NCBI GenBank assembly: GCA_013115125.1
Contig: JABANN010000046.1
Location: forward strand, 62,001-102,830
Source of the DNA: Perkinsus olseni
Taxonomy: Eukaryota
Length of the DNA stretch: 40,830 bases
Reading direction: 5' to 3'
Part shown: positions 1,906-36,738 of the stretch, one piece after another
How positions within the stretch are numbered: the stretch's first letter is position 1
How the letters are laid out: each line of letters starts with the position of its first letter
Notes under the pieces: model-generated
What the model saw: the letters and a program-made list of their open reading frames with translations, nothing else
Told to the model about the DNA's origin: nothing
Database searches by the model: none
Made by a program: the position numbers and the translations under genes

Positions 1906-3988
1906 TCAGGCACCGAGAGTGCCGCAGATTGAAGACCGATCGATAGAGTCGATGGTGGAGGCGGCTAGAGTTTCGCTGGAGATGGACTCTCTGCTGTCGA
2001 TCCGTGCCGCACCCAAGTGTCGCAACTTAGCACTATGACCACCTGCCAGAAGCATTGCACGCCACACGAAACTTCGCTCCGCTCACCTAGGCCAGCATCT
2101 GTGCCAGAATGCTGCGAGGATTCGATTTTCCTTCTCTCTGCTGTGATATCTTGGAAGACTTCACGGTAAAGCAAATGACTTTCTATCACTGACTTCGCGT
2201 CATCTATCTCGTCCGCTCGTCCACACAACTCGATGCAGGGCCGCTCTCCCCCTGCCTCATCCGTATCCGAATACCGGGCGTAATGGAGAGCAGTCTGTTC
2301 AGCTAAAGCTGACAAGTTGCTGAATCGAGGCCCAACCACCCACTGGACGCTGTCGCTTTCAATAGGGTATCTGCCCAGGACAGATCAACTGCTGCCCGAA
2401 GTGAAGCGTCTCTTACTTTGTTATGAAAAACTCAAGCCGCCTTCGAGCGAGGGTTAGAGCAGGCTCTGAAGGCCCCTCGATAATCACCATTGAACCTGTT
2501 GGTGACTCTCGGGATACCTCTATTATTCGGACCTGACAGGACGACATCCTAGGAGGTCCCCGGTTCGATCCCGGCACCCCTCACATTAACGCCAAATTCA
2601 TCCTGAACGCTCTTCACATTAGCGCCTCCTTTCCCTATTGTAAGGCCGAGTAGCCTCCGTGTTGTGGCAAATTTGACAACCAAATTCCGCGGTTTTCCGA
2701 GATCTGTGAGATTCTCAGAGGCTGCCGCGGCCGTCTTCACCGTAGACGACGACGACGACGACGACGACGACGATGAAGATGATCGCTGTAGCGTTGTCTT
2801 CCAAGGGCCACTTGTCCGCACCTCCATCCTCTCATCACCGGCCCGCCTTTGACTTCTCCCTCCAGTCTGGCAACAACACCGAAGTCCAACACGTCCGTAG
2901 AGGGAGGGCACACTCACAGTGGCTCTCGGCTGTTGATGTTTTCTAAGGGCGAGTAAACGGCGATGATGGAAAGACTGGATCACCAATTGGTGGTCGACGT
3001 GGATGCTCAGAAGCATACAAGCTCGTGCTGTGGTGTGGGCGAACCCTATCAAATGTACTCTGGGGTGGTCACAAAGTGAAGTCTGGACTGATATCTGCAG
3101 GACAAGGTGAACCGCTGCGGGGGGGAGGCTGCCCGCCGTACCAGTGAAAGTTTAACCCTGACGGCGATGTATTTCATGCAGGCCCGGCCATCATCAGAAA
3201 TCAACCAATCAGCCAACGACTGAGGTACTTCATAAATTTCAGTCTTCAACTTGGTCAAGGAGGAGGCACCTAGGGCGACAACGACCTTTAGCAATCCATC
3301 GACCCAGGTTCAATCCCGGCACTACTACATTCAACAGGATCATCCTGCAGATGCTCAGGACTCGCCTGAGGCTGAAGAGGTGCACGTAGATGGTCAAGCT
3401 CAACGATGGTCTCCTCCCGGTCAGAAGGCAGTGGTCCCTCATCACCGTCGGGCTGCTGATTGACATAATACAGTCCGTCCCTAACAACCCTGACAACACC
3501 AGGCCTCCAGCAGGGCGGCGTGGAGGCGCTCCCCAGTGACAACACCTGAACGAACAGCAACTGCGATAACAACAACAACAACAACATCTTCACGGTACTA
3601 CTTCAACCGTGTCACCCGGACCCGGTTGGAAGCTTCCCGGAGTAGCCCTCTTCGGAACACACCGGACCTGGTCGAAAGGATCTTTCTAGATCTCCAGCAG
3701 ATCGACGACCTACCGCCTCCACTGGAACGATCCTAGGCTGCCAGACATTGCTCTGGAACGCTATCCGCACCTGAGAGCGGGAGCTTTCGAAGTCGTAAGG
3801 ATGCTACTACTAGTCCGACCAACCTCGCTAGCTTTTAAGTCGATCCCCGCCAGATGTGCCGTGAACCTGCCGACGACGGACACAATACGCCTGGTCATGA
3901 AAGGACTACAATAGTACCATTTATTCTCGTAACCTTGAACCTCAACGGGCGCCGAGTAACACTGTACAGCGGCAGACGGCGGCTCCAT
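1906..3988 (-). CDS. FMR1/FXR-like RNA-binding protein (Agenet-Agenet-KH0-KH1-KH2), multi-exon
   Basis: Spliced peptides VEVQGYENKWY; PCWRPGVVRVVRDGLYYV...ETIVELDHLR; EIYEVPQSLADWL; RLLGLTIGKGGANVKSVQDEFGVN|VRII...IIEGPSEPALTLARRRLEF (KH GxxG); IESHLLYREVFQDITAERRKIE. Order and residues parallel FMRP. Stop TGA at 1906-1908. Confidence 0.8.
2552..2583 (+). pseudogene. tRNA-like 3' fragment (variable loop, T-arm/B-box) antisense inside KH-gene intron 2533-2584
   Basis: GGAGGTC CCCGG TTCGATC CCGGC ACCCCTCA; removing 2533-2584 joins FGVN|VRIIE. Confidence 0.75.
2745..2772. repeat. (GAC)n microsatellite encoding poly-Ser in the KH gene
   Basis: gacgacgac run; reads SSSSSSSSS in minus ORF 2549..3052. 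Confidence 0.85.
3301..3325 (+). pseudogene. tRNA-like T-arm/B-box fragment antisense inside KH-gene intron ~3270-3328
   Basis: GAC CCAGG TTCAATC CCGGC ACTAC. Confidence 0.7.
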
Positions 3989-4083
3989 TCACAGCAGCAG
4001 CCGGGAAAAACTGATAGGAAGATGGGAGCCCAACTTCAAGGGGAAATGATAACCAAACAAGATCTTTTCGGTGAAATGCTGCA

Positions 4084-7000
4084 TTATGGGCATTTGTGTG
4101 CATCACCCGTGGTGGCAGAATTAGTCCGTGGTGACTCATCATGAGCTGCGGCAGGGAGGGGACTGCCGTCTTCGTGGGCTACGAGAGGGTACTTCATACC
4201 ACTCCTTTCCCGAATCCTATCCGCTACCAGTTCCCTCTTCTCCTGATCCCCCCATTGTTCGCCTGCGTTTTGCGGCCGGCGGGGAGACCGCACCCTGCTC
4301 TGGTCCATCCGAGGGGTCGTCAAACCATGCATGATCATCCCTGCAAAATAGATGCCGCTGCCCGGGTTCGAACTCGAGACCTCCGCGCTCACAGTGCTCG
4401 CTGGGCGGACCATCTCTTCTTGTCGTCCACTTGGAGGAACATGTCAATAAGATCCTTCGCTACCTCAGAGACGTCCTCCCATTCTGCAAATGCGAAGCTA
4501 TACCTAACCACCCGGGTTCTATCCCCACACCTGACATACCTTACTCTGCATTTAAAATCTTCTGGTCCAGCAACCCTCCCTGACCGTCGGGGTCCTCATC
4601 CACCGAGAATGGCGGTGTCGCCGACAACAACACGTATCTGGCCGACACGACTCCGAAGCATACAACAACTTCGTCCCGCCCTAGGCAGACGAAGACAGTC
4701 GTCAATCGACCCACGCGAGTCCGGCCCGGCGTATCTCGCCAGACTCCTACTTCTGGTCGACCCTCATGGGCGAATTTCGAGGCGCGCGACGCAAGTATTA
4801 CAGTATGACTCCCAACGCCCAGCAATCCACTTTGTTGTCGTAAGTCACTCTGCGGCCAAGCTTCAACATGACCATCTCCGGGGCAAAATAGTGAGGCGTC
4901 CCGCAATAAGTCCCTACGGAATAGCCGCCTATCAGTCCTACTACCAGGAAACCCTACCAGCTGCCTCGCCGGTAAGAGGATTTGTGTGGCGTGCCAGGCC
5001 AAGATCTGATATTTTACCATGACGTTGGTCGGCCGTAAGGAGTATCTTCAAAGATACTATCCTCACACAACCACAGGACACACAATCGAAACGACCAAGC
5101 ACGAGCGAGATCAACAAAAAGCAGCGGCCCCCTTCCAACAGAGACTAAAACCGTACGTACATTCTCGGGCTTGAGGTCCCGATGGATGATATTATGACTG
5201 TGCATGTATGCAACGCCGCTGCAGAGATCACGGAAGAGCACCTGAGCGTCCGGCTCTCGGTACCTGGCAAAATGATGGGGGATCGGACAAGGAGTGGTAC
5301 TAGTACGCGCCGTGATTGAGGAGCCTTTCGAGAAGGTCTCCACCTTGCATTAATTCAGTAACAATGAAGAGGCTTCGATGGTTCTCAAAATACGTATAGA
5401 ATTTGACGATCGCCGGATGGTCCAACTCGCGTAGGACCTCAAATTCGGATCTGATCGACAAGAGTTGGGAAAGGAGTGGTACGAAATACCCACTTGCCCG
5501 GCCCTACCTAAATGTGACACTGTTGGACTTAGTGCTCTGCTGGAACTTGAGTAACTTAGCCAGATCGAGCTCCTTGATCGCAACCTGCTTGCCACCCTCC
5601 TTCTTCTCCGTCGCGCTATGAACCGTGGCGAAGTTCCCTTGTCCGAGAGGGGCGTTGATGTAGTACCTGTCCCCGCCCCGTGACCCGATAGATCCATCAG
5701 CCCCCCCCCTCCCCTTATTACAAATCCTCCATTGATCGTCCGGCTGTGTCTCTGGGCGGGTCGGAGTCTTCGCAAGTTGACGCTGAACTGATCGCCTTCT
5801 TGCCAAGGGGCCTCCCAACCTCAGAGCTGTCATTATCCCCGAACAGAGCACCGTTGTATTTATATTCTGTCAGGATAGCTCTGAATGTGAATTCCTGGGG
5901 ACACGACGCAGACAGTCGAGTTGGTAGAATCGCCATCCATCATCCTACTATCCCAGGCTCTATTCCCACCGCCACCGCATCTTTTCCTTGACACGCCAGA
6001 GATACATGATCACCCGACTTCAGCGGATGCATCTGAGACACCCCGGGCATTTATCAAATGCCCCTGGTCGTCGTCGTAGGCGGCCTACGTGCTTCCTAGG
6101 GAGCCTCTTATCGTTGAGGTAAGTCCCATTGGTCGACGAGTCTATTATATGGAAGGCCTTACCGTCATGCTCCAGAGTAACGTGCCTGAACACAGAGTGT
6201 CTTCACACCAGTGTAACGTCAATTTTGCGTACGAGCCAGATACCCTGTCATCGTTCAAGACGATGCTGCAAGAAGGGCTACGACCGATGGTGATGGAGCT
6301 ACGCAGACCTGCAGTGACCCGCGAGGTCGAAGGCCGCCACTGATACCTAAGGGGACGTATTTTCCAACCGTCCCTCTGGAAGGGGCCGTAGGACTTGATA
6401 TCGCCGCTGAGCTGAGCTATGACGGGGTCCTGTTGCCCGACGGTATCGCGGTCCCTCCTCCTCCGATGGACAGGCACTTCCTCCCGAACTGATAGAAATA
6501 CCGTAAAACCAAGACTCACAGCGCCAACTGTACCCTGAGTAGCTGCCGGAGGCATTGCCTGAGTCATCCCTACTACGACGGCACCATCCATAATCTCCTC
6601 CTCCAGCGGATCCTCGTAGCCCAATGGCTTCCATAAGGCCACGAGAAGAGGCTCAGGATGCCCCCTTATGAAGGGGCTCGTCACCAAGGAAAAGCTCTCT
6701 CCCGGCCTGGAGCACAGAGGGTCCATGTGTTACATGGCCGACTCCACCGCACCTTAAGACTTCGGTCTTGTTCGCTATTAGTCGCCTGGAGCCGATGTAG
6801 GTGCCGTTCCGAGAGACATCAGTGATGGTGATTTCGTCCTCTTGACCCGATTTCGATGGGTCGTGATCCAGTCGAACCTACTCAACTACTTCGACTGGGG
6901 AGCGTCGTATGAAGCCTACATGGACGGTAGAGACCTTGGGGTCTTGGACCTCCACATCGTTAGTACCATCCCTGCCAATGCGCCACGATGATCGGTCCGA

Positions 7001-7784: not shown

Positions 7785-7855
7785 TGCGCCCGCCGGGAGT
7801 CGAACCCGGGTCACAAGCATGGGAAGCTTGTATGATACCGTTACACTACGAGCGC
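7785..7855 (-). tRNA. tRNA-Gly (anticodon CCC)
   Basis: Reverse complement GCGCTCGTAGTGTAACGGTATCATACAAGCTTCCCATGCTTGTGACCCGGGTTCGACTCCCGGCGGGCGCA: 71 nt, paired acceptor, anticodon (CAAGC/GCTTG) and T stems, A and B boxes. Confidence 0.96.
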
Positions 7856-7899
7856 TCTTGTTTATGGAGGTGTAAAGAAAGTCCGGACCAGCGTTGACA

Positions 7900-9595
7900 A
7901 TGCGGGCTGAATCCAGAAAACCATCCCTCGCCAAGAGAGCGCTGAACCGCATCGCTTCCGTTGCTTGCATCGGTCCGTCAACCACTCTCTCTCAGGCGAA
8001 TCATCCTGAATGGCCAGAAGATGACCTTTTCCTTCTCAACGAGCCCGATCACCAAACCCCCGATCAGGGCATGTTCTACTCTAGACGCCGCCAGTTCGTT
8101 GGCGTATGGCGCCTCACTAAAAATGTGATCCACTGGTATCTTGGATGTGCGTGAAGGTCTCCATCTAGGTACTCAGTTTATCGTGGGATGCCGAGGAGCC
8201 TCAGGACATAGTTAGGGCCGTCGAATCAGAGAGAGAGTGGAGGAATGACCAGACCGGACTGGTATGGCCTACGAGGCTCCGTCGTCTTCCATCTAGTGCA
8301 CTCTGCCCGGTAGTAGGTGCTCACCGTGGTGAACCTCGAGGTCCTCCCCCAATGGCTGGCTCCCTCAGTTTTGTCGCAGCGGTATGAGTTATTGAGCTTA
8401 GCAGAGAGGTCGGAGAGCGGCTGCTGTTGCTTGAAGCTGATATGCGATCGTCTGATCAACTACCAGATACAACGAATGCGCTGTCTGTTACTTCGAGCTC
8501 TACCGGCTCCCAGTGGGCATCCTGCGGTCCCAGAGTAAAAGGGCGTGCTCGCACTACTTCCACACGGAGTGCATCAAGCGACTGGTTGCGAAGAACGCGT
8601 AGGAACTCCCCTGGGCCTCTGTTGTTAGAGTTTGCATGCTCAGGCATGAGGCGCGTAACGCGGGCCATGCTGCTGTGCGGGAGTGCCCTATATGTCGAGC
8701 CAAGTTCAGTGACATCAAAACCTTGCCAGACGTCTTCAAGGTGAGCTCAAGCTACCACTAGGATCTTCGCTCGTCGTCAACTCGGTTGAGGAGTCTTCAC
8801 AAGCTCGGAGTAACCTCAGGATCCCCGAGCATGGTTTCAACTCTGCGATATAGACTGTGGTGGCACTCTCGACAAGGAAGAGGTCCTGGGCGCCCTCGGA
8901 GCGGTTTTACCCGTGGAGAGAGACAAGCTCGCTGAGTAGGTCACATGGCTCTACGCGTTTGGTCATGTACCATTCAGGGCGATCGAGGAGAACTGGGTGG
9001 TCTGGGACCCCGACAACGATGGCTCCATTACTCTCACCGAGTTTGTTGAGCCTCGCAGAGGCCTCCGAGAGTAGACCGCATTAATTAGATGCCGGGCCCG
9101 AGGATCGAACCTTCGACCGCAGATACCTTCTGAGGAACTTCAATGTCATCAAGACAGAGAACCTCAATATACGGCCTGATGACATCCCGGACCTCGATTC
9201 CCATCCGCTCGAATGGTTTAACTTCTGGGACGGCAATGGCAATGGTGGGGCGCTTTGCTTCACAGCAGCATTCAGGCAGATACCTCAGCAGGTTCTCTAG
9301 AGCGGAGCGAGATCGTCCGGGCTATCGTGAGAACCTTCTGCGTGAGCCCCAGTGGCGAGCCTTCTTTCAAGCGTGCTTTCGACTTGAGGGAGATGGCTCT
9401 GTTCATCTGGGACTCGCTCGGGTGAGGGAACGGCTCGACACGAGAGATTTAGGATAGCCCGTCAGGTATCACGAGTTCGGAGAGCTCACTTTTGAGGAGT
9501 TCAATGCACCTTTCGGTGTCGGAGATCAGATATACCATAACTACATCCATGGCATGTACTTTGGCGAGAACGAAGAGCACAACTTTGCCTGGTGA
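7900..9595 (+). CDS. RING-H2 zinc finger plus EF-hand protein (putative Ca2+-regulated E3 ligase), multi-exon
   Basis: Spliced ECAVCYFEL...ACSHYFHTECI...ECPICR (C3H2C3), then EF loops DIDCGGTLDKEE, DPDNDGSITLTE, DGNGNG|SLERSE and degenerate GELTFEEF; stop TGA 9593-9595; start uncertain. Confidence 0.8.
9090..9120 (-). pseudogene. tRNA-like T-arm fragment antisense inside RING/EF gene intron 9071-9122
   Basis: Minus strand GCGGTC GAAGG TTCGATC CTCGG GCCCGGCA; splicing joins GLRE|YLLRNF. Confidence 0.65.
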
Positions 9596-13785: not shown

Positions 13786-16252
13786 ATGCCTGAGGACGTG
13801 GTGAAAGAGTATGATGCTGTGGTAATAGGAGCCGGCATAGCTGGCTTGAACTGCGCCAAACGCCTCAAAGCGGCTGGAGCATCTACGGTAGTCCTCGAGG
13901 CTAGCTTCCATATTGGTGGACGATGCAGGTAGTACTGGTGGTGGAGCATGAGTTGGGGAAATAGCGGTATCGAAGGATCGGGGCTGCAGTTGGATGACAG
14001 GAGCATGTCGGCAAATTGCTCTATGCCAGTTCACGAGCAAGCAAAATCTTTTATTGGTCATTATTAGCGAATTTTACACCTATTCAGAGAGGGGCTTGAG
14101 AGGGGGAATGATGTAGTCGTGAGGGCTGGCCTGATGCTGGATACCGCACCAAAGGGAATAGTCTGCGGTACGTGGAACTGTGGGCTGCGGGTCCTTGTCT
14201 AGAAGGGTCGGTTGATAATGAGCACTTCAGGACGCTTCATGAGAGTGACATGAAAGCACCGGGCTCTCATGGATGGTGGATGCATACAGAGGGCAGCATA
14301 GGTCGAGGCAGCAGCCATTTCGACGTTGGTGAGTGAGGGTGGAGTAACAGCGGAGGCCCTATGGTGTTGCCAAGGTGCCGAGTTCATACACGGCGACGGC
14401 ACGAGCCTGTATCGAATGGCCCAAGAGAAGGGATGGAACTTACAGAAGGTGCTACTCAAAGGGCAAGGGTTTGATATATGCGCATCCCTCCTTCTTAGCT
14501 CTTCACGTGGGCTCAAGGCGATGGCGGTCCGAATGATGAGATGGTCAATGGTGGTGCTGGCTACTACTATGTGGATGGACAACTGTATCGGTTTGACGAG
14601 GTAGAAGCTGTCTTCGTTACTTCTTCTTTCGGTGTGGGATTCCGGATCTGTACGACTGAAAGGGTGAAAGCAAAGCGACAGAGTTTCCATTGTTATTGCA
14701 GTTGCCACCGGACTTCCGTGAAACGCATGAAATCCTGTCGAGAATGGCCGACGAGTATCCTGTGGCGCACAGCGAAGATATGGAGGCGGTTTTGAGGTCG
14801 AGGGGCGTATCAGATCGTTCGGAGAGGTTGGTGCAAGCTGGATATGGCAATACTGCCGGCGGGGCATTTCGAGTACTCAGTTGGCGTGCTAACTGTGAAG
14901 CGGTAGGTCCCCGGTTCGATTCGAGGCTAGGATACATCTAATCTGATCATCAGGAGCATTTCTATGAACGTGATGATGGCGACCATGACTTCCAAGTCGA
15001 GCAGGGCTTCGGGGATTCGGTCATCGGAGAGCTCGAGAAGGATGCTGGCGAAGTAGTTCTCGTCGCCTTGGACCCCCGCTGTGACTTGGTCGAGTCAGGT
15101 GCGAGTCCGCCACCGCGTCATCAGTGTAGCCATGGGGGCCGATGGAGTTGCATCAGTTCGATGCTCCAACGGTCGAGTGTTCAGAGCCCCACACGTTATC
15201 CTCTGCGTAAGCCCGTTACCATCGTCATACGTGTGGACTTTTCCCCTCCCAGGTACCCGTGCCGGTACTACAGGGCAGCTATGGCCCGACCGAAAGCATC
15301 GCGATGAGCCCGCCCTTGCCCCAGTGGAAGGAGAACGCCATCCAAGATGTGGGCGCTCCGCTGTTGGGGCCGTGGGGGGGATTTTTTTCTCAGATGACGT
15401 GCTCACCCTCCTTGAAAGTGTACGCTAAGTTCAGTAGGAGATTCTGGCCGGCTGATATGCATGGTATGATCTTCGCTCTGCCGAACCTCATACCGGAGGT
15501 CTGGACGGATCATGGCAGCGACAACATTCTCTGTGGTGAGTTCTCCGACTGCTAGTGCTCATACCACGTGCAGTATGGCTCAGGATTCACTATGGCTTCT
15601 TGGGCGGAGCGATGCGGTTCGATGCCGCCGGCTAGGCTGCTGGAGGCCTTCCTTGAGCAGCTCGATCGGGTCTTTGACGGCAAGGCTAGTGGGGCTTATG
15701 AGGGAGGTGAGGGAGGGAGGGAGCCTATCCTTGGAGACTTGGGTCATCCAGGTCTCTGAGATGCTGTTGCTAATGGTGCTTCGCTGCTACGCTTCGCTTG
15801 TTAGGTATGGTTTTCGACTGGGGGAAGGTGCCTTATATTCGGGCTGGTTACTGCCCGCCTTCCGTGACAGAGCAAGAGGACACGAGACGGAAACTTGCTG
15901 AGCCTATCGTATACGATACAGGTCGGTTGATGGCTCCTAGTCGGGCATGGAGCATTGGTGTTGAGCTCAGGTTACAGCCTTCATTTCGCAGGCGAAGCCG
16001 CTAATCCGGAGTGCTACATGACGGCCCATGGTAGGTGTCTCGGGTGGGTAGAGGCTCTCACAAGCAGGTGGTGGCCTTCTAGGTGCGATGGACTCCGGCG
16101 CTCGTGCCGCGGAAGAGGTTCTGCGGCTTTTGAAACCGGGCAAGACTACGGGTAATAGCCCTTCGCTGAGGGGGGCCGGTGGAGGAGATGTGGACGTGCT
16201 CTCAGGGTCTCCAGCTGCGTCGAAGGCTCAGCAGTTGTCTAGCAGGCTTTGA
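13786..16252 (+). CDS. Flavin-containing amine (polyamine) oxidase, multi-exon, C-terminal SRL
   Basis: DAVVIGAGIAGL...VVLEASFHIGGRCR (FAD GxGxxG and GG motif), FDVG|AEFIHG, KVYAKFSRRFWP, DWGKVPYIRAGY, LHFAGEA, TAH|GAMDSGARAA; ends QQLSSRL*. Confidence 0.92.
14903..14934 (+). pseudogene. tRNA-like T-arm fragment starting at the donor of amine-oxidase intron 14903-14953
   Basis: GT AGGTC CCCGG TTCGATT CGAGG CTAGGATA; splicing joins ANCEA|EHFYE. Confidence 0.65.
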
Positions 16253-16421: not shown

Positions 16422-16508
16422 TGGTCCGGTGGAAATATTGGGGTGGGGATTCGAACCTGGGTCGCGTGGATGAAAGTAAGGGCGCCTAACCGGCTGGAAT
16501 ACACCGGA
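16422..16508 (-). pseudogene. Intergenic tRNA-Glu(TTC)-like pseudogene with an insertion
   Basis: Minus strand TCCGGTG TATTCCAGCCGGTTAGG...CTTTCAT CCACG CGAC CCAGG TTCGAAT CCCCACCCCAATATTTC CACCGGA CCA; acceptor strands pair, anticodon and T stems do not. Confidence 0.7.
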
Positions 16509-20218: not shown

Positions 20219-23200
20219 ATGGAGCCCAGCATTCGACTCTTCCGACTGCCACTGTCTGCCAGAATGCTCGCTGCGGCTGCCGGTGCGCGCCCTTGGGCAC
20301 TTGGCCGAAGGTGCGTCTCCTCAACGGCTGCGTCGCCCGTGGCGGACTTCGTCGATGCTCTGGAAGGGGCGGAGCGGAGAGTTCCGGAATGGTACAATCC
20401 CGAGTTCGTGAAGCTTCATGAGAAGGTGGTGCAGTATCTTCCAAATGCAAGTCTGGAGGGAGAACTTTTGCCATTGATGAAGGCGGTGTCGGCGATGCAT
20501 GGGTGAGGGGTTCTTGGGTAGTCGGGTGTAGTGAACCTCAGGCTAATCAAGGCGCCACTAGTGTACGCGAAAGTAGATAGCATGGCTCCTGTCTCGGAAT
20601 CAGTAGTTACCTCACGCCTAGTGGGGCTACAAGTTCTCCCGTGTCCTCGCTATGGGGAGGCGGTGCAGATATTGTCTGAGCCTCGCTTGCTGAGTCGGTA
20701 CCGCTAATTTGGTAGAGCAGTCGACTGCCAAGCTAGTGGGCGAAGGTTCGACCCTTGCACGCGGCGCCCTGGGTGTCCGGACGATAGTTTATTCTAGCAT
20801 TGTCACTATTTGTTTCATATTTTGCATACTTCACAGTAGTCGCGGGAACATGGATTGGAACTCTACTCCTTCAGGTTCGGCCTCTCAGAGTTGGTATCGG
20901 CCATTGAGACACGCCTGATATCCCTACTGGAAGGACTGCATGCTCCTTCCTTGGACAGGGCCACGTAAGAGCGGGAGTCTCTGACGTCTCGCGGATGACC
21001 CCTGTAGGAAGTTGGTAATAATCCATCAGATTCGTACGTTTATTGCTGTTGCTGGCCTCGTCCAGTGATGCTCCCGGTGTGATGAGCAGCAAGCTCCGTG
21101 AGTGCCTCGAAGCGGAAGCACTGGTAGCCAGATTGACTTTGCACCATCGGTGACGGCTCAGTCAGGTTCATATAGCCTCCTACTTGAAACCAAGTGACGG
21201 AGAGACCCTCATGAGCTTGGCTGCTATGATCATAGGTGAGCTGGTGGAAGTTTGGTACCGGACAGTTCTCTGACGGGCTCCTCAGGTTGCTCGCAGTTGT
21301 CGCTGTCTTCTTTACCACTGGCGACCGCCGTGCAGGAAGTTATAGATGAGAGGGTGGGAGACCTTCTAGAAGCACTCGATATGAGGATGTTGGCTCACAC
21401 CGAGCTGGCTGCTGCCAATCTTGGAGCGGGCAGAGGCACGGGGTGAGCTGGATCTCCATCGTAGCGTGAGGCAAGTTGTCAACATTGAGGTCCTCTCTCA
21501 TGGCTAGAGAAAATTCAGAACATCACTTAGAGTATCTATCACTGTTTGGAACTTCCAGAATAGTGGCTGTGTTCACCGAAGTCCAGCGCGCAAGAAGGCG
21601 AGATTACATTTACATGCCAGTCATGAGATTAGTAACGCAATAACGGCTATGAATCATTTCCTCAGATACTCCCGATTGATGAGTTTCTTCTGCGCCCAGC
21701 CGCTGGACGATTTGGAAAACATAGCCAACGTGAGTGGAGGTCTTCTGGGCAGTCTGCGATCCTCACCCTCTCATCACCACCCACAGGGGTGGGCTCGATT
21801 CGAGCTTCGAGATCGAGCAGAGCTTGGTTACAGCTCTCCCTTGCTCTCCCCTAGTTGCTCGCAAAGTAGGGATCGTGATTGAACGAAATGTTCCCGGCAA
21901 TCTTTCGGGTCGAACCAAAGTGTTTAACCGAGATTGTTGCTATTTTGACGCCCTTCTTGCTAGGGTTCCTCTCGATTCTTGCAGTTGCTGCTGATCCAAG
22001 CGACGACTCGCTCGTCCCACTTGGCCTTGACAGCCCAGCTCATCTCGAGCCTGGATAGCGTGCTAGCTAGAGAGGATGATGGCGACGGAGGGGAGGAGCA
22101 GGAAGACCAGTCGAGCCATGCCCTTACGGCGCTCTGGTCTCTGGTTGCCCTCGGCCATGGGCAGGTAGGCATGGGCGACGACCACTCATACACGCGAGGA
22201 CCGCAGCCCTTTGCGCAGAACCTGAATCCCGAGGGGAAGTTGCCTGGAACGATTAGCTCGCTGTTGGGGATGGCAACCACGTGGCAGTGCCTTGACGACC
22301 CCAAAATGGAGCGCCAGTTGCAGCAGCTCTGTCTGAACTTCGTCCTGGAGCATGGCGAGAAGCCCGAAGTGTCGTCACAGGTCAGACCACCGGTCGATTT
22401 TTCTCGTGTCTTCTGACCCTCCTTCAGGTGCCACCGATGCCGGACTGCGTAGCTCGGGCTGGGCTGAAGAACAAAGACTGGCAGAATGTCTGGTAGGCCG
22501 TCGGCGATGTGCTCTGGAGGGGCACGATGAAGTAGATTCACCCGCCGGCTGTTCGATGCTTCTGCGTCGCCAACAGGGCGAGCCGACCATCGTGGTGGAT
22601 GATATAAATGGTCGCCTCCGCACTCTGTTCGCTCACGATAGTGGAGTCGTGTTACACAACCATCGAATCTGATTACTCGGCTTTTATTACCGGACCATTG
22701 GGCTCCTTCTGGTAAACGAGGAATGCACGGGGTCAAGCGAACTCGCGGGGCTCGCGGAGATATTTTAGCAGATCGATGGAACTGACGGTGTATTCTAATA
22801 TTGATTTTAGGTCGTCCTTCGCGCTTGCTGACGATGCCGCTGTTGAGGAGTCGTCGGTAGCTTTTAGTGAGCTAGTGAGCTCTATTGAAGGAGAGGTGGA
22901 GGACATATTGGAAACTCTACCCGAGATCGGTAGAAACGTCATCCGCAGGGATCGAACCTGGGATCTCTCTTACGCTGGCAGATATTACCTACTCACCTAC
23001 CTGGAAAGCCGAGCTAGTGTCTAAGTTCTACGGAAGGGATCGTCTTTTCGCCGATAAATTTGGAGACGTCTTTATTCACGTTGATTGTGGCCCCGCCTGG
23101 TTGGAGGAGCCGCTGGACCCCTACGCCCAACTACTGCATCGACACGTACGTTAAAGTCGGAAGGGATGCGGCCAATCCCGCGTTAGGTACGATTGGCCGG

Positions 23201-23409: not shown

Positions 23410-24245
23410 ATGGTGTGCTCGAAAGGTCGTCTGCAAGCGTCGGTTGAGGGTTCCCCTGAAGTGGAGGTCCTCCAGGACTCCGACGCAGCCATCGTTCGGT
23501 TCAAACTGGTACCCACGAGAGCTTTGGCTGGGCCTCAGTTTGATTGAGCAGGTGCTGACCTTGCCGCTGTCGATTGTGCGGAACTCGGTGGAGTCGAGTG
23601 CGTCAGCAGACTTGGCCATAGAGTCACAAGTGGAGCCCGTACTGAAAGATGTTGTCCAGGTGAGCAGGATGTGATGTTGATATTCTAGCCGGGAGGTGTA
23701 GGGTTCTATCCTCGGTCACGCTCTTTTTATTACCGCACTAATATCGTGTTTATTGGCTCAGGATGCTACTAAGGAGCCAGAGGATCCTGCAGCGCCTTCC
23801 AAAGAGGGCGTGATGCCCCCACCTGGTTTGGGGTTGGCCTACCGTTCTGAAGACCTCAGTGAATCTACTGAAAATTACCCTTGGAGGTAGTGGGATTTTC
23901 GGAATTTCGTGGCGCAGTGACGCTTCCAGCCTGGCGGGACGGGCTGGCTCAGAGGACCCCTGGAAGCGAGTGCCGATAAGGGCGTGTAAGGAGGAAGCTC
24001 ATTATCACGATTACACGGAGAGGTTCAAATGGGATTGGAACTCGGCACGATACATGCTCCGCGATGCCGAGCAGAGAAACCTACAACGACAGAAGTATCT
24101 TAGCTCGGCCTACGGACAATTGCATCCGCAGGAAGTGGGTTCAATCGGTCGGTGTGTGACTCGCCGATGCCTTTCGTAGGTCCTGGGTGGGCCCTCGGAG
24201 GGGAGGACTGGCGATGAGGGGGAGGGCCGCTACCACTTCGGGTAG
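23410..24245 (+). CDS. Hypothetical protein, multi-exon (may extend to ~24800)
   Basis: In-frame splicing MVCSKGRLQAS...IVRFKL|VLTLPL...KDVVQ|DATKEPE...WKRVPIRACKEEAHYHDYTERFKWDW...QE|VLGG...YHFG*. Confidence 0.55.
23683..23728 (+). pseudogene. tRNA 3'-half-like fragment followed by T5, in intron 23660-23761
   Basis: TTCTAGC CGGG AGGTG TAGGG TTCTATC CTCGG TCACGCTC TTTTT (Pol III terminator-like). Confidence 0.55.
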
Positions 24246-25171: not shown

Positions 25172-25211
<40 letters not shown>

Positions 25212-26732
25212 AGGTCTTGGTGGCCCCCCTGTACGCCTCTGGGGCCTTCCTTGCGGTATGCCTGTCGAACGTAGACTTGGGGGTGCTTCTGGGGTCCATA
25301 CCCGAGATATGGGAAGCGGTGGTGGTCTACTCCTTTTTCTGCTTGATTCTGACGTATGTTGGCGGGGAGCACAATTGGATACAAAGTGAGTGACGGGCTT
25401 CGATGAGAAGCCCACCAGATTCCGTCACGCGCCACGAAATTCTGCTGAACAGGTACGCAGTATACAGCGCCGGATGGTATCCAGCAGCCGTGGCCACTGA
25501 ACAAGTGTTTTGGGAATCTTGCCCTCACGTCGGAGTTCCTCAGGGGAATGAAGAGATGTGTGCTTCAGTTTGTCGTATTGAAGCCGGTCATGACGGTCAC
25601 TGAAATTGTAAGTGTGCCAGCCGCCGGGATCGAACCTGGGTCCTTCGCAAGCGAGAGTGAGGCGTGGCTCATTTTCTCTCAGTTAATGCACATTCTGGGA
25701 CAGAGCGATAGTAAAGTGTGGACTATCATTCGGGAGGTCGCTTATAACTTATCATACTCGGTAGGTCTCTCTCGGGATCCAGAGGTCCCAGGTTCGATTC
25801 CTGCACCCGTCAGGTTGCACTATATGCCTTGGGCCTCCTGTACATATCTTCTAGACGCCATCCGAGTCTGCGAGACAAACGGCCCCTGGCGAAATTCGTC
25901 TCGGTGAAGTTGGTCATCTTCGTCACTTTCTGGCAGCAGTACTTCTTCGACCTCGTTTTCTCGAAGGATGATGAGGCGATCGGCATCAAGTGGAGCGCCT
26001 TCGTCGTGTGCATAGAGATGGCCATTTTCGCCATTCTCCTCACCTCCGCCTTTACCTGGCGGGAGTTCGAGTTCGAATGGGTTGAAGCATCACCTCCTAA
26101 AGTTGATGACATTGAGATGGACAAGGTTGAAAGTGAGGCCGCCGCGTTTACAATCGAAGAGACGCTTCTTGTGCTCCGATACATTTTGTCGGGCCTCAAT
26201 TCGTCCACCATGCTTGGGGTTGCCAGATGTTCTGCTTTGCAGGTGGTGTCCAGGGTGAGGATAGGGCCTCGACGGATGGGGAGCAGAGCCCTCGGGAGGA
26301 GCGGCCATCCGAGCCCGAACAGCAGCAGCCAGCTCACGTTTCTTATGGTCAGTTGTCTGCGCGCCGGAGTGTGTGTTTGATGGTCGTGCTGGCATTAGGT
26401 ACGAATAGTCGTATATTACCAACACAGGCGGACATACGGTTGGCCTTGGCGAATGCAAAGCGGTCGCTGTATCCGTCGGACGTGGCACTGGATACGTCCA
26501 GAAACTGGAGTACTCGATATCAAGGCCACGTGAGTTTCTGACCTGTCTCCTACGATCTGCTATGTATTTTTACGTTGTGCTGGCATTCATAGTGAAGACC
26601 ATTTAGGTACTGTTGGAGACCAGTCAAGCGTTTGTGGGAGAGGAGGATGAGGAGCTGGAGGAAGCCTCCGAAGCTCGGAAAGAGGACAGCATCGCATCAC
26701 CCGAAACTAACTCGGAAAAGTCGGTTGAGTGA
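24928..26732 (+). CDS. TMEM184 / organic solute transporter OST-alpha family membrane protein, multi-exon
   Basis: QHLLNYSREDLQMHIIRI|VLVAPLYA, EIWEAVVVYSFFCLILTYVGGE, MKRCVLQFVVLKPV, YNLSYS|VALYALGLLY, PLAKFVSVKLVIFVTFWQ, VCIEMAIFAI. Confidence 0.93.
25174..25210. repeat. (GCTT)n tetranucleotide microsatellite in first TMEM184 intron
   Basis: gcttgcttgctt run of about 9 units before the CAG acceptor. Confidence 0.9.
25615..25657 (-). pseudogene. tRNA 3'-half-like fragment antisense in TMEM184 intron 25608-25682
   Basis: Minus strand CTCTCGC TTGCG AAGGAC CCAGG TTCGATC CCGGC GGCTGGCA; splicing joins VTEI|LMHIL. Confidence 0.75.
25771..25813 (+). pseudogene. tRNA 3'-half-like fragment (Pro CGG-like loop) in sense orientation filling TMEM184 intron 25761-25813
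   Basis: CTCGGGA TCCAG AGGTC CCAGG TTCGATT CCTGC ACCCGTC AG, ending at the acceptor; splicing joins LSYS|VALY. Confidence 0.75.
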
Positions 26733-26992
26733 GCACTCCGTCACGCGCCACGAAATTCAACCGTGTTTCTCTCGCTTAGAAGTCCCCGACGGAAAAGCCT
26801 CAGCGATACCGACTGAGCCCCTTCTTGGTATTTTATGGTTTGTATTAAAACTTTCATGGGCCTCTCACCGGTCGCACTATCATTGCTGCTACACTTCATT
26901 CCGAAACAAAGAAGAAGTTCAGAACATTCCGAAAAACAAGATTTTTGTTTTTCGTGGTGGTTGTGCGATCCGTTCGTTTAGTGACTCCCACC

Positions 26993-29900: not shown

Positions 29901-30320
29901 ACGGTCTCTAAAGGAGGACTGCGGCGGTGACGAGCAACTCTATTTATCCAATAAAAACATACAGCCCCTCATGAAGGACCTCTCTGGGGTGAGTGAACGC
30001 GATGGTTGAAATGCCCGCTGTGGGATTCGAACCCGGGACCTCGGGCATGTGCGCCACTCAGGTCCGTGGCCGTGGTAACGACACGAGCGGAGATGAAGAC
30101 TTGACGGTTCCCACTGAACAATACACACACGTAAGATATCGCTTGCTGCGGGTGCAGTGACGGTGGTCGATCTCAGCCTCGACTCTATAACGAATCGCCA
30201 GCCCTGGCGTTCTGCGCTCTAGCAGCGTCAGAAGGGAAGGGCCGGAAGGAAGCGGCGCCAGCAGCGCCGCCAGCGCCCAAGGTCTCGTTCCGACCCCCGA
30301 CCAAACCCAGGGGCCTATAG
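26993..30320 (+). CDS. FtsJ/RrmJ-like SAM-dependent 2'-O-methyltransferase domain protein, multi-exon
   Basis: EFRDLCDEKELG|WQS..., KIFVDIGSAPGGMS|KFLL (FtsJ motif I), FECADL, NQFLLMLDFLKPGGS; final exon ends PTKPRGL* at 30318-30320. Confidence 0.8.
27520..27648. repeat. Tandem ~50-bp duplication plus TATCCAGTAT sub-repeats in an FtsJ-gene intron
   Basis: 27520-27569 and 27576-27623 share ACCTTCAGGATCGTAATATTATA.ATCCAGTATTAG; further TATCCAGTAT/TATCCACTAT units follow. Confidence 0.85.
30012..30043 (-). pseudogene. tRNA-like T-arm plus acceptor fragment antisense in FtsJ-gene intron 29989-30176
   Basis: Minus strand CG AGGTC CCGGG TTCGAAT CCCAC AGCGGGCA. Confidence 0.75.
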
Positions 30321-31195: not shown

Positions 31196-31222
31196 GAAGT
31201 GTGCCGGGGTTGAACCTGCGCG
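31196..31222 (-). pseudogene. Intergenic tRNA-like T-arm fragment
   Basis: Minus strand CGC GCAGG TTCAACC CCGGC ACACTTC. Confidence 0.55.
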
Positions 31223-31650
31223 GGGTTGGCGGAACGATATTATGGCATAGGAACTTGCCCACTCGAACAAATTCACACGCATGAAAGAATGACTGGAAGC
31301 ATTCACCCTCATCGCTCTCATATCGGTAGGGGTACATCTCAGTGAGAGTTCTTGCAGTCAGTCTCACTTCAACGTTGCACCTGAAGCATCTTCATGTTAC
31401 GCGACGGTTAAGTCCGACCCTACAGTAGTTGATTAATATTGCATGCCCATACCCAGTAGCTCAAGTAGATTGCGGCGATCGAGCTCTCTCTCTGGAGGGT
31501 ATAGTCTGGTAGGGCACGGTCGAACAACACCGTATCAACGTGTGACCTAATCAATGGTCTCATTTTTGCCCTCGTTCTTAAGACCCTTCAACTTCAATTT
31601 ATATCTTACCGGTTAGTCATCTTCTATTCACGTTCATTTGCACGATAGAG

Positions 31651-33944: not shown

Positions 33945-34127
33945 CATGTTATTGAACAATGAAGCTTCTGGCCAGGGATGCGTCTTGTTGGAGTAGGGGA
34001 AATAGCGAGCTTGGTGGGGAGTGCACTATTTATAGGAAGTGGGCCCTAGCATGCGGGAATATGGCGGACTAGGAATCCTTCCCGGAGGAGTACTTGTCGT
34101 GTAGGTTGTTGTCCTGTTGATCGCGTG

Positions 34128-36738
34128 ATGCTATCGATAAAGTCGGGCAACAGGCAGGCCGAGGAGAGCTCAAATGGGGAAGTGTCGATGTCTATGTTGG
34201 ACTCAGCGCATCATCAGCAGATGTACCAAAGGCAGCTGGTGTTGCCGGGAGATGTGATCAATGCTGAGAAGGGATTCTTGAAGGTAGTAGGGGGGCTGGC
34301 TTGATCGGAAAAGAGGGGCTATGCCTGTGGCTTGGCTAAGGAGGAGCACTGGTAGAGGGGAATAGACTGGGTAGTAATTTAGATGGTGTAGAATTTGGAC
34401 CTGGGGTGCGGTTTCACCACGTCCTGTAGAATCCACGAAAGCGCGTATGGTTGCGTGAGGATCTGAGGTGATTAGCGGGACTCAGCATGCCGTGATTCTA
34501 TCATTAATAACCCACCGTAGCCTCACGGCATCCTCACTAGCTGAGGATTGTGTCTTGTGTGTGGCGTGTGGGAAGATGCAGGATACCCTAGAGAGCTAGT
34601 AGCAGTAGGACGCCTAGCTTGGAAACGTTGAATGTATTATCGTATACCATACATATAGTTTGGAGTGTTCGTACTTGGATGGTTTGTTCGTGGATTGGTG
34701 TTTTGGGAAGTTGCAGTGTGTTCCAGTTCGTCATGCGAGTTGCTGTGACGAGGGTATCTCGGAGATAACGGATGGTTCGCAACTTCTCAACTGACTACTC
34801 AGTGTCTCGGTCTCGATACGTCGAGGGCACCAGCACTGGCATGCCGCGGTTCTCTGCGCGGATTGCGGTTCGATTGTGTAGGGTCGCGGCCTCCTAGTTG
34901 ACCCCGTCGACGGCAAGCTGGTTGCTACTGTCAGAGGGATATTAGAGAGGGTCAATAAGCTGCTTTACATACGTCCTTTGAAAGTACGACCGGGGAGAGG
35001 GCTCGTCGAGGGCGTCGTGGAGGGAAGTCTGATCTCAGAGCCGGTATACAGGGGAGGTCGGTGACGTTATCGTCGGACGAGTCGCTGAGGTGGGCGGAGA
35101 TAGATGGATGCTGGACTATGGCGGGTAAGCCGATGGTCTAAGGATCGATCCCGAGGTAGGGCATTTTGCGTTCAGAGGAGGATCCTTGGCGTCCTTGCCC
35201 ATTGGTGGTGTTAACCTTCCGCAAGGAGAGCAGCGTCGTAGGACTGATACCGACCGGATGAACATGCGTGCCATGTTCACTGAGGGAGATCTTGTCAGCG
35301 CTGAGGTAAGGCTTGCGAAGTTCCGAGGCAACCCCGGGAAGGATCGACTGTTTGCGGAGCTACTCTCGATGTTCGAGGCTCCCGCAGCTTCTCCCATGTT
35401 ATTCGCTGTTACCGTGGGTTGGAGCTTTCCTCTATACGTTGGCCTGTACATGGTATTTTCATCACGTTCCTTCGCACGGGGGGGCGCTGACTGCCACGCC
35501 AATACTATGATTGGGATTTTCGACCTTCTCTTGCAGACGTTGAGACCGCTCTTAGCGTCATCGTTATGGGTCTGACCTCTTTTTCACCCTTCAGATCCAA
35601 AAGGTGGTATCAGACACTGGAGATGTTATTTTGCATACTCGAAGTGCTAAGTACGGCAAACTGTATAATGGCCAGATGGTGCGAGGTAGGAAGGCTCAGC
35701 AGCAGCTGCTGGACCAGTCGAAGGCATGCTTCTCGGTAGTGTCCTCCTCCCTGGTGAGAAGACAGTCTTCCCATATTGTTGAGAATCTCCCTGCACCCTT
35801 CGATCATGTAAGTGGGACGTTTGCACTGTCTCGTTGTAGGGGTGTAGTAGTAGAGCGTAACATAGGTAGATTGGGCTCATTGGGAACTAGATTGAGCGAG
35901 GAGTGGTGGAGACGGTGGTTGTAACTTACTAATGGTATGAGCTTAGCGCGGTTGTGTTGTGTTGACAGCGCTCATTGGTGAAAATTTGATGATGCCTCGG
36001 CTGCTGTCTACTTTTCTGCGTGGACATGGCAACGCCATCCGTGCTGCTCCTCAGTTACAGCTTGTACTTGGCCTGAATGGTTGGATTTGGGTGGGTATGA
36101 GGCCGAAGCAGTCCGGGCATATTCAGTCTATTAACTTCACACAAACAGAGAAGGGGTCAGCTAGTCATCACCACCATTGATGCCTCAACCGAGTGGTCTT
36201 GTTGTAGGTTCCAGGAGGTTGACCAAGCCTCGAGACAGGCCATATCTCTCCTTTGTGCATGCGTACGTTGGGCGATTTCGTTCCGTAAAATTTTGTGATG
36301 AGCGTGTGATTGTCGAGGATATGCGTATCGTAGTGGGAGTGCAGAGGATGGTAATGGAGCTGTAACGTTCAGATTGAGGCTCTGGGCAGCTCCTTCTCCG
36401 AGGTTACAGTAGACTCGATGCTAGCTGTGGTGGACGCCGCCCGACGGAGAGGGCTGGAGGGCAAGGACTTCCTGTAAGGCATCAGAGTGGTTCCATCTGC
36501 GGGGCTGCGCTCAGCGGCGCCACGGTTGCCATCCGGGGTCTCTCTCATGACTCCGATGGGGTATTGATGGGCCGTTTGTGTTTGGGTGTAGCTCAGCCGA
36601 TCCTGGCTGTTGCGGTGGGATGCGTTTCTTTACAGGATTCCGGAAATCGCCCTAGAGTGCGCGAACGAGGCACGCGAAGTCGCGGCGGGAAGGAAGGTTA
36701 CGGAAGACGATGATGAGCAGATGGCTGATGCTTCCTAA
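34128..36738 (+). CDS. RRP4: Exosome complex component RRP4 (EXOSC2), multi-exon
   Basis: LVLPGDVI...GFLK|GRG, ERVNKLLYIRPLK|SRYTGEVGDVIVGRV, VNLPQGEQRRRT, FTEGDLVSAE|IQ, LHTRSAKYGKLYNG, LVLGLNGWIWV. Confidence 0.95.
35132..35167 (+). pseudogene. Degenerate tRNA-like T-arm fragment in RRP4 intron 35125-35175
   Basis: GATGGTC TAAGG ATCGATC CCGAG GTAGGGCA TTTT; splicing joins DYGG|GSLAS. Confidence 0.5.

What the first reader, a model, noticed from the sequence alone, without database searches (positions are those of the whole stretch)
2533..35175. Dense family of tRNA-like (B-box/T-arm) fragments inside spliceosomal introns of unrelated genes
Seen: about 15 introns in 10 different genes each carry a tRNA-like segment, usually variable loop (AGGTC/GAC) + xxxGG-TTCRANY-CCxxx + an acceptor-like 3' end. 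Introns: 2533-2584, 3270-3328, 4341-4392, 4504-4544, 5895-5975, 9071-9122, 14903-14953, 17267-17556, the RAP intron (element 20694-20766), 22930-22981, 23660-23761, 25608-25682, 25761-25813, 29989-30176, 35125-35175. Two more are intergenic (16422-16508, 31196-31222). Both orientations occur, copies resemble different isoacceptors, and they are not near-identical as young SINE copies would be. They explain the recurring AGIEPG peptides in the ORF track. Established: GGTTCGANYCC is the TFIIIC B-box, and TFIIIC-only (ETC) sites act as chromatin boundaries in yeast and mammals. Inference: roughly one site per 2.5 kb suggests a genome-wide system. Candidates are intronic TFIIIC docking sites, tRNA-derived intron-generating insertions, or a source of tRNA-fragment-like small RNAs.
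Basis: partly seen in the sequence, partly recalled or inferred. Interest (0 to 1): 0.88.

Follow-up and report, generated by a model that had tools for sequence, protein, structure and literature searches.

The report
tRNA-derived repeats forming short introns
In this Perkinsus-like parasite genome, about a dozen short introns in unrelated genes are built largely from decayed copies of the back half of a tRNA gene, which suggests that tRNA-derived mobile DNA created these introns.

Summary
The T-arm/B-box motif GGTTCRANYCC occurs 10 times in 40.8 kb against 0.55 expected. Only one occurrence is a real tRNA gene. Two sites, 5895 and 23660, are at noise level.

Thirteen copies lie in GT..AG intervals. 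Three are spliced out in RNA contigs of 4 runs, one is skipped by orthologue proteins, and five more pass a strict intron rule.

The copies hold only the tRNA 3' half plus a T-rich trailer. The A box is not enriched. T stems are mismatched, and at least three subfamilies share non-tRNA features.

Family introns have the usual 51-53 nt length and are nearly filled by the element. All 8 antisense copies sit 0-23 nt from the 5' splice site.

Best reading (about 0.5): an old tRNA-derived, introner-like element whose insertions became introns. TFIIIC docking, small-RNA roles and genome-wide extent are untested. The organism resembles Perkinsus. My searches found no such element in print.

The parts
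2533..2584 (-). 52-nt intron. Antisense tRNA-3'-half-like element starts 1 nt after the first intron base (subfamily A).
   Evidence: Leave-one-out score 22.9 bits. Passes the strict intron rule. Two P. olseni partial proteins read two codons into it and stop. Offsets.
3270..3328 (-). 59-nt intron. Antisense element starts at the first intron base (subfamily A).
   Evidence: Leave-one-out score 14.9 bits. Skipped by P. olseni proteins P0004 and P0005 in tblastn. Aligns with intron 2533 at 28 of 34 positions, including 6-7 nt of upstream exon.
4341..4392 (-). 52-nt intron. Sense element with trailer ATCTAWTT..TGCRG (subfamily C).
   Evidence: Leave-one-out score 11.7 bits. Passes the strict rule. 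Aligns end to end with intron 35125 at 42 of 62 positions.
4504..4544 (-). 41-nt claimed intron, almost wholly antisense element (subfamily B).
   Evidence: Leave-one-out score 11.8 bits. 28 of 35 identical to the start of intron 17267, counted from the 5' splice site. No transcript evidence.
9071..9122 (+). 52-nt intron. Antisense element (subfamily C trailer), 3 nt from the 3' splice site.
   Evidence: Leave-one-out score 20.3 bits. Passes the strict rule. Aligns with 4341 in the opposite orientation at 28 of 35 positions.
14903..14953 (+). 51-nt intron. Sense element; the variable-loop AGGTC lies inside the 5' splice site GTAGGT.
   Evidence: Leave-one-out score 10.1 bits. Passes the strict rule.
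16422..16508 (-). Non-intronic, full-length tRNA-like copy with a 7-bp acceptor helix and an encoded CCA.
   Evidence: Leave-one-out score 9.2 bits. Fold shown. Not called by ARAGORN at default settings or by the Rfam tRNA model.
17267..17556 (+). Claimed 290-nt intron. Antisense element at 17268-17311, 9 nt from the 5' end; minisatellite further in.
   Evidence: Leave-one-out score 20.3 bits. Offset. Minisatellite. Intron not confirmed by the joints shown.
20503..20874 (+). 372-nt intron holding a near-full-length sense tRNA-like copy at 20694-20766.
   Evidence: Leave-one-out score 10.5 bits. RNA contig pieces of 3 runs end at 20501. GTGAGG at 20503 and CAG at 20872-20874.
22930..22981 (+). 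52-nt intron. Antisense element 7 nt from the 5' end.
   Evidence: Leave-one-out score 21.9 bits. Passes the strict rule.
25608..25682 (+). 75-nt intron. Antisense element 7 nt from the 5' end (subfamily A).
   Evidence: GT..AG joint in 4 of 4 runs. Skipped by P. chesapeaki protein P0002. Leave-one-out score 25.0 bits.
25761..25813 (+). 53-nt intron. Sense element ending 1 nt before the last intron base (subfamily A).
   Evidence: GT..AG joint in 4 of 4 runs. Leave-one-out score 24.3 bits. 27 of 31 identical to intron 2533 in the opposite orientation.
29989..30176 (+). Claimed 188-nt intron. Antisense element 23 nt from the 5' end (subfamily B-like).
   Evidence: Leave-one-out score 23.3 bits. 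Offset. Intron not confirmed.
31196..31222 (-). Copy outside any claimed intron (subfamily A).
   Evidence: Leave-one-out score 12.0 bits.
35125..35175 (+). 51-nt intron. Sense element (subfamily C).
   Evidence: GT..AG joint in 4 of 4 runs. Leave-one-out score 12.5 bits.
5895..5975 (-).
   Evidence: 2.3 bits, within the shuffle range.
23660..23761 (+).
   Evidence: 6.0 bits, within the shuffle range.
7785..7855 (-). Genuine tRNA-Gly(CCC) gene, used for comparison; not a family member.
   Evidence: ARAGORN. Rfam RF00005 at 62.3 bits. 5 of 5 T-stem pairs.

Best explanation
These are old, decayed copies of a dispersed repeat derived from the 3' half of tRNA genes. Each copy holds a variable loop, a T arm carrying the B box, the 3' acceptor strand, a discriminator base and a T-rich trailer.

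Copies that landed in protein-coding genes, in either orientation, are removed by the spliceosome and now make up most of a normal-sized intron. In effect this is an introner-like element of tRNA origin.

What the sequence shows about splice signals:
- In the antisense orientation, the reverse complement of the acceptor end and trailer lies at the 5' splice site (GTRAG or GTAG).
- In some antisense copies the reverse complement of the stretch just before the variable loop gives the CAG.
- In the sense orientation, GT plus the variable-loop AGGTC can form the 5' site.
- In the sense orientation, the T-rich trailer followed by CAG forms the 3' site.

Shown here: the family, its tRNA-3'-half anatomy, its position in introns, its coextension with short introns and the 5' anchoring.

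Inferred: that insertion created the introns, and how the element moved. It may have moved by retroposition of a Pol III transcript or by a DNA-level copy; neither was tested.
For: 1. It is a family, not a motif. All 15 copies are found by a profile of the other 14, at 9.2-25 bits against at most 7.8 in shuffles. This compares with 0 of 252 between these and 9 other RNA-confirmed introns, and 1 of 72 among those others.

2. Only the 3' half is present. The A-box pattern is not enriched: 13 against 9.4, and 13 of 100 shuffles reach 13.

3. The copies are not tRNA genes. Their T stems keep 2-4 of 5 pairs, against 5 of 5 in the real tRNA. The Rfam tRNA model finds none of them.

4. Subfamilies share features that are not tRNA-like. 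Examples are the same mismatched T-stem strands (CCNGG..CCNGC..CCCAC) and the same trailers (ATCTAWTT..TGCRG; TGAC-AT).

5. Homology reaches the splice sites. 4504 against 17267 gives 28 of 35 from the 5' site. 4341 against 35125 gives 42 of 62 across the whole intron plus flank.

6. Ten of the 13 family introns are 41-75 nt long. Seven of them are 51-53 nt, the same mode as 12 non-family RNA-confirmed introns. The 30-nt core unit plus trailer leaves only 3-29 nt in 9 of the 10. The shortest Perkinsus intron in print is 39 nt (PMC3101222, passages). A pre-existing intron plus an insert would therefore be clearly longer than what is seen.

7. All 8 of 8 antisense copies start 0-23 nt from the 5' splice site, including those in introns of 290 and 188 nt. 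My estimate of the chance of that placement in the two long introns is about 0.014.

8. 7 of 15 cores lie in strict modal-size intron-like intervals, against 178 of 3000 random positions; binomial P = 1.1e-5.

9. Three family introns are spliced in RNA contigs and one is skipped by orthologue proteins.
Against: - No target-site duplications were seen by eye, and no terminal inverted repeats were found in the long introns.
- No near-identical copies exist. The best pair is 27 of 31, and flank identity averages 39%. There is therefore no sign of recent activity.
- No presence/absence case could be examined.
- Splice sites sit at different offsets from the unit, unlike classic introners, which have fixed ends.
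- Copies were ascertained through the B box, so copies with a decayed core would be missed and B-box conservation cannot be judged.
- Some of the similarity next to the 5' site is forced by the splice consensus itself.
- Only 4 of 13 family introns have transcript or orthologue support. One more has partial support (20503-20874; contig pieces end at 20501).
- The strict rule recovers only 2 of 7 RNA-confirmed modal-size introns.
- Everything rests on one 40.8-kb window.
- The source tRNA genes were not identified.
Confidence: 0.5

Rival explanations
1. Neutral debris. tRNA-derived repeats or tRNA pseudogene fragments inserted everywhere, and survive only where they are harmless: in pre-existing introns and between genes. 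They have nothing to do with the birth of introns.
For: Two of the 15 copies lie outside introns (16422, 31196). One sits in the middle of a 372-nt intron. The copies are old and mismatched. No duplications or inverted repeats were found. P. marinus is reported to carry more than 500 copies of five tRNA gene types, so tRNA-related DNA is plentiful in the genus (PMC3706591, sections 10 and 13 read).
Against: Family introns are not longer than other introns. In 9 of the 10 short ones only 3-29 nt lie outside the 30-nt unit, too little for a prior functional intron. 8 of 8 antisense copies abut the 5' splice site, even in long introns. Homology between copies runs into the splice sites.
Confidence: 0.2
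2. Selected DNA sites. The B boxes are kept as TFIIIC-only (ETC-like) docking sites or other protein-binding sites inside genes. The tRNA-derived origin is then only the raw material.
For: The 11-nt core is intact or nearly so in all 15 copies, while the outer T-stem pairs and flanks have decayed. Both orientations occur, as a DNA-level site would allow. No A box accompanies the copies. That B boxes bind TFIIIC and that ETC sites exist in yeast and human is recalled knowledge, not tested here.
Against: Core conservation is confounded by ascertainment, because every copy was found through the core. Nothing explains why a binding site should sit 0-23 nt from the 5' splice site. No occupancy or cross-species conservation data are available.
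Confidence: 0.12
3. Intron transposition. One or a few introns that happened to contain a tRNA-like segment spread as whole introns, by reverse splicing into other transcripts, reverse transcription and recombination.
For: Some pairs align over the whole intron at similar length, for example 4341 and 35125 at 42 of 62. No transposon hallmarks were found.
Against: Both orientations relative to the host gene occur, 8 antisense and 5 sense. The subfamily C trailer occurs in both orientations (4341 against 9071), which reverse splicing cannot produce. The offsets of the unit from the intron ends vary.
Confidence: 0.08
4. RNA-level role. The tRNA-like parts are cut out of excised introns as small RNAs, or they fold to help splicing.
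For: None beyond the resemblance itself.
Against: 8 of 13 copies are antisense to the host transcript. The T stems are mismatched. Predicted folding is no more stable than shuffles: mean z is +0.07 for 10 family introns and -0.13 for 9 others. No Rfam tRNA or tRNA-like hit was found.
Confidence: 0.03

Closest known systems
Introners and introner-like elements: intron-generating transposable elements of Micromonas, Aureococcus, fungi, dinoflagellates and Amoebophrya
   Same: Similar sequences make up introns in many unrelated genes and are coextensive with the intron. Related alveolates (Amoebophrya, Polarella) are known to carry introners (PMC7789003 and PMC12130899, passages read).
   Different: Described introners are DNA transposons, LTR or non-LTR retrotransposons, cryptons or helitrons. 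Neither survey's main text contains 'tRNA' or 'SINE'. Here there are no inverted or direct terminal repeats, no fixed ends, no young copies and no extra RNA stability.
tRNA-derived SINEs
   Same: A dispersed repeat with a tRNA-like B-box region whose stems need not pair, organised in subfamilies. The T-arm region closely resembles that of an unrelated tRNA-derived SINE-like repeat seen in metagenome contigs.
   Different: The A box is not enriched. Most copies keep only the 3' half, whereas 5'-truncated SINE copies would lose the tRNA head. No LINE-like tail, poly(A) or duplications were seen.
TFIIIC-only (ETC) B-box sites
   Same: A B-box consensus without an A box or a complete tRNA gene.
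   Different: Here the sites are homologous repeat copies inside introns. Occupancy is unknown.
Amplified tRNA genes and Dada DNA transposons of Perkinsus marinus (PMC3706591)
   Same: The same genus-level background: hundreds of tRNA gene copies and mobile elements tied to tRNA genes.
   Different: Dada elements are 4.7-11 kb transposons that insert at the A box (TAGCTC) of intact tRNA genes. The elements here are 30-50-nt 3'-half fragments inside protein-gene introns. No link between the two was tested.

Membership tests
Introner / introner-like element | Introns of unrelated genes share sequence similarity | tested here: met
There are 13 robust copies in about 10 genes.
Introner / introner-like element | Element coextensive with the intron and supplying splice sites | tested here: inconclusive
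   Alignments reach the 5' site or span the intron in several pairs. 8 of 8 antisense copies lie 0-23 nt from the 5' site. But the offsets vary, and 3 introns are far longer than the element.
Introner / introner-like element | Transposition hallmarks (target-site duplication, terminal repeats) or young near-identical copies | tested here: not met
   No inverted repeats were found in the 3 long family introns scanned (17267, 29989 and the 34284-34881 intron), nor in two other long introns. The 372-nt intron 20503-20874 was not scanned. No duplications were seen by eye in the flanks. The best pair is 27 of 31 identical.
Introner / introner-like element | Presence/absence of the intron between strains or sister species | not testable with these tools
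   No genome is held. The metagenome scan with a window protein found nothing.
Fungal introner-like elements | Unusually stable predicted secondary structure | tested here: not met
   Mean z of +0.07 for 10 family introns.
tRNA-derived SINE | Internal Pol III promoter with both an A box and a B box | tested here: not met
   The B box is enriched. The A-box pattern is not: 13 against 9.4.
tRNA-derived SINE | 3' tail (LINE-related, A-rich or simple repeat) and target-site duplications | tested here: not met
   Trailers are short and T-rich and differ by subfamily. No duplications were seen.
Functional tRNA gene | Cloverleaf recognised by tRNA finders | tested here: not met
   ARAGORN at default settings finds only 7785-7855. 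The Rfam tRNA model finds only that gene. Relaxed ARAGORN gives 44-191 calls, which is noise.
tRNA retropseudogene | Copy of a mature tRNA with an encoded CCA end | tested here: not met
   CCA follows the acceptor strand in 1 of 15 copies (16422). The others continue into T-rich trailers like a gene's 3' flank.
TFIIIC-only (ETC) site | B-box consensus without a Pol III gene | tested here: met
   9 exact B boxes lie outside the real tRNA, and no tRNA model hit was found.
TFIIIC-only (ETC) site | TFIIIC occupancy without Pol III | not testable with these tools
   This needs chromatin occupancy data.

The most novel reading that the evidence does not exclude
Perkinsus carries a so far undescribed class of intron-generating element derived from a Pol III gene: a tRNA 3' half plus trailer. 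Its sequence supplies spliceosomal signals in either orientation. The reverse-complemented trailer gives GTRAG or GTAG. GT plus the variable-loop AGGTC gives a 5' site. The T-run plus CAG gives a 3' site. On this reading the element has seeded on the order of a tenth of the organism's short introns.
Probability: 0.35. Interest if true: 0.8.

Novelty: new variant of a known kind. Interest (0 to 1): 0.62.

Why it matters
How new spliceosomal introns arise is a long-standing question. The known intron-generating elements are transposons of Pol II type or DNA transposons. A tRNA-derived element that becomes an intron in either orientation would add a new source. It would also link the unusual amplification of tRNA genes in Perkinsus to its intron-rich genes.

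The idea is directly testable by scanning the public Perkinsus genomes and comparing orthologous introns. If the copies instead prove to be passive debris, the finding is a modest note on repeat content, and a warning that such introns give spurious 'AGIEPG'-type peptides and may break assemblies.

Tried and rejected
- Whole genome: none is held.
- A home-made dynamic-programming gene finder recovered only 4 of 15 RNA-confirmed introns exactly. I did not use it for any count.
- Rfam at E up to 10 finds none of the elements, either on the whole window or on 16380-17400. Relaxed ARAGORN is noise.
- Subfamily profiles and trailer-only patterns found no further copies above shuffles. The family appears closed at 15 plus 2 doubtful in this window.
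- The inverted-repeat search in long introns found nothing relevant. RNA folding shows no excess stability.
- The metagenome scan with a window protein gave no relative.
In the first 30 loci only 1 match lies in a called tRNA. The contexts look like chance matches in GC-rich sequence plus an unrelated SINE-like repeat. This is uninformative for this question.
- Protein searches with 6145-6729(-) and 5504-5869(-) found nothing, so the kinase-gene introns 4341, 4504 and 5895 have no orthologue support.
- Read laying showed only 15 of 63 joints, so absence of the other family introns from that table means nothing.
- Supplements of the introner surveys were closed and may list Perkinsus.

Full report
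**What the window is**

The window is intron-dense eukaryotic DNA with about 53% G+C. One exon, 25814-26131, is 83% identical to a Perkinsus chesapeaki protein. Another, 3330-3587(-), is 89-92% identical to two P. olseni proteins. The organism is therefore a Perkinsus species or a close relative.

- The B-box/T-arm motif GGTTCRANYCC occurs 10 times, against 0.55 expected. None of 100 shuffles reaches 10.
- With one mismatch there are 27 matches against 9.9.
- A longer variable-loop-plus-T-arm pattern is also enriched, 21 against 11.3.
- Only one of these sites is a real tRNA gene: tRNA-Gly(CCC) at 7785-7855(-), found by ARAGORN and by Rfam at 62 bits.
- The Rfam tRNA model sees none of the others, even in a 1-kb search around two of the longest copies.
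- Relaxed ARAGORN settings produce 44 to 191 calls and are useless.

Besides those sites it finds only the real tRNA (12.1 bits) above the best shuffle score of 7.8 bits in 20 shuffles. In leave-one-out tests all 15 sites score 9.2-25.0 bits. Subfamily profiles and trailer-only patterns add no further copies.

**Are they in introns?**

RNA contigs from four runs, one on record as RNA, were laid on 16001-36000. They show GT..AG joints that remove 25608-25682, 25761-25813 and 35125-35175. Only 15 of 63 joints were displayed, so the other family introns in that stretch are neither confirmed nor refuted. Contig pieces of three runs end at 20501, next to GTGAGG at 20503. This fits a 372-nt intron, 20503-20874, around element 20694-20766.

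tblastn of two P. olseni proteins shows that they skip 3270-3328 exactly. The P. chesapeaki protein skips 25608-25682 and 25761-25813.

My first check, an open frame after removing each claimed intron, turned out to be worthless. A comparable rule is met by 1424 of 1500 random positions.

I then applied a strict rule: 49-56 nt, GTRAG or GTAG at the start, YAG at the end, at least 25 open codons joined on both sides, and read-through stopped. It is met by 7 of 15 element cores against 178 of 3000 random positions, P = 1.1e-5. The rule is conservative and recovers only 2 of 7 RNA-confirmed introns of that size. It adds 2533, 4341, 9071, 14903 and 22930.

4504-4544, 17267-17556 and 29989-30176 remain unverified.

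**Anatomy**

Each copy has these parts:
- a variable-loop-like RGGTC or GAC;
- a T arm with a nearly intact 11-nt core;
- seven 'acceptor' bases;
- usually an A (11 of 15 copies), read by eye from the alignment;
- a T-rich trailer like the 3' flank of a tRNA gene.

The T stems keep only 2-4 of 5 pairs, against 5 of 5 in the real tRNA. The A-box pattern is not enriched, 13 against 9.4, so only the 3' half of the tRNA is represented.

Two copies are longer. 16422-16508, outside introns, has a perfect 7-bp acceptor helix and an encoded CCA. 20694-20766 lies in the middle of a long intron.

Outside the core the copies average 39% identity, with a maximum of 56%. They fall into at least three groups that share features no working tRNA would have:
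- Group A: 2562, 3307, 22948, 25626, 25791, 31206. These share the same mismatched stem strands.
- Group B: 4515, 17287, 30023, 16447. The 3' stem strand is CCCAC or CCCCA, and two of them (4515, 17287), together with 22948 of group A, share the ending TGAC-A/G-T.
- Group C: 4364, 9101, 35142, 14913. These share the trailer ATCTAWTT..TGCRG.

They point to a few master copies, not to many independent tRNA genes.

**Relation to the introns**

None of 252 comparisons with nine other RNA-confirmed introns does so, and 1 of 72 among those nine does. The family is therefore a discrete subset of introns, not a general intron property.

Alignments run into the splice sites:
- 4504 against 17267: 28 of 35 from the 5' site.
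- 2533 against 3270: 28 of 34, including 6-7 nt of upstream exon.
- 4341 against 35125: 42 of 62 over the whole intron and into the downstream exon.

Eight copies are antisense and five are sense to the host gene. All eight antisense copies begin 0-23 nt from the first intron base, even in introns of 290 and 188 nt.

Family introns measure 52, 59, 52, 41, 52, 51, 290, 372, 52, 75, 53, 188 and 51 nt. Twelve non-family RNA-confirmed introns measure 52, 54, 298, 63, 67, 110, 51, 77, 598, 55, 289 and 54 nt. The mode is the same. In nine of the ten short family introns, only 3-29 nt lie outside the 30-nt unit. A 39-nt minimum intron length is reported for Perkinsus (PMC3101222, passages read). An insert into an existing intron should therefore leave a clearly longer intron than is seen.

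**Mechanism**

The most economical reading is that insertions of a tRNA-3'-half-derived repeat into genes became introns. In antisense copies the 5' splice site lies in the reverse complement of the trailer or acceptor end. In sense copies GT plus AGGTC, and a T-run plus CAG, serve as the splice sites. These placements are read directly from the sequences.

That insertion created the introns is an inference. The mode of movement is unknown.

Several points weigh against a classic introner:
- no terminal repeats and no obvious target duplications;
- variable offsets between the unit and the splice sites;
- no young copies;
- no excess RNA structure, with mean z of +0.07 against -0.13 for other introns.

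**Rival explanations**

- Passive debris fits the two non-intronic copies and the mid-intron copy. It does not fit the intron lengths or the 5' anchoring.
- A selected B-box (TFIIIC) site fits the well-kept core. But every copy was found through that core, so the argument is circular, and occupancy cannot be tested here.
- Intron transposition by reverse splicing is contradicted by one subfamily occurring in both orientations.
- An RNA-level role is unlikely, given the antisense majority and the lack of structure.

**Literature**

- 'introner' with 'tRNA-derived' returned 0 papers.
- 'Perkinsus' with 'introner' returned 2 papers, neither describing this.
- 'tRNA-like', 'spliceosomal intron', 'intron gain' and 'insertion' together returned 1 unrelated paper.
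- Searches gave nothing closer.
- The two large introner surveys do not contain the words 'tRNA' or 'SINE' in their main text (PMC12130899 and PMC9860276, term searches). Their supplements were closed and may list Perkinsus.
- PMC3706591 (sections 10 and 13 read) reports more than 500 copies of five tRNA gene types, and tRNA-targeting Dada transposons, in P. marinus. This shows that tRNA-related DNA is unusually mobile or amplified in this genus. It describes nothing like these intron elements.

**Verdict**

The intron-generating reading is the best supported (about 0.5) but rests on one window. It would be a new variant of a known kind, an introner-like element of tRNA origin. Genome-wide extent, age, source genes and any TFIIIC role remain open.

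Noticed in passing
Its first 11 bases resemble the start of the 25608 copy and the 31196 copy, but it has no T arm.
   Followed up: partly
window 2579-2584 (-), proteins P0004 and P0005: Both P. olseni 'partial' proteins end two codons into the tRNA-like intron 2533-2584. Their gene models, and perhaps their short contigs (1454 and 1927 nt), stop at this element. That would fit a repeat that breaks assemblies.
   Followed up: no
window 26348-26398 and 26530-26606 (+): Two RNA-confirmed introns of the same gene share a motif near their 3' ends. This was the only non-family intron pair above the alignment null.
   Followed up: no
window 17405-17483 (+): A minisatellite with a 41-nt period and 1.9 copies lies inside the claimed 290-nt intron. 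Contigs of two runs have loose ends at 17404 and one of them also at 17442, which suggests length variation.
   Followed up: no
window 25173-25211 (+): A perfect (TGCT) run of about 10 copies lies in a stretch that RNA contigs skip (25140-25218). Read laying flagged it as a repeat.
   Followed up: no
window 3095-3138 (-): One P. olseni protein (P0005) skips this 44-nt stretch. The other (P0004) reads a proline-rich segment there. This may be an alternative or mis-called short intron.
   Followed up: no
window 7760-7784 (+): The real tRNA-Gly gene, antisense to the + strand, is preceded on the + strand by GTAGAAG 25 nt from its 3' end. This is the same arrangement as the antisense intron copies. 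I could not tell whether it lies in an intron of a + strand gene.
   Followed up: partly
loci L006, L013, L019, L025, L029, L031, L035 and about 25 more: Many low-GC metagenome contigs carry one near-identical tRNA-derived SINE-like repeat, often close to a contig end. Its T-arm region closely resembles subfamily A of the window. They are unrelated organisms.
   Followed up: no
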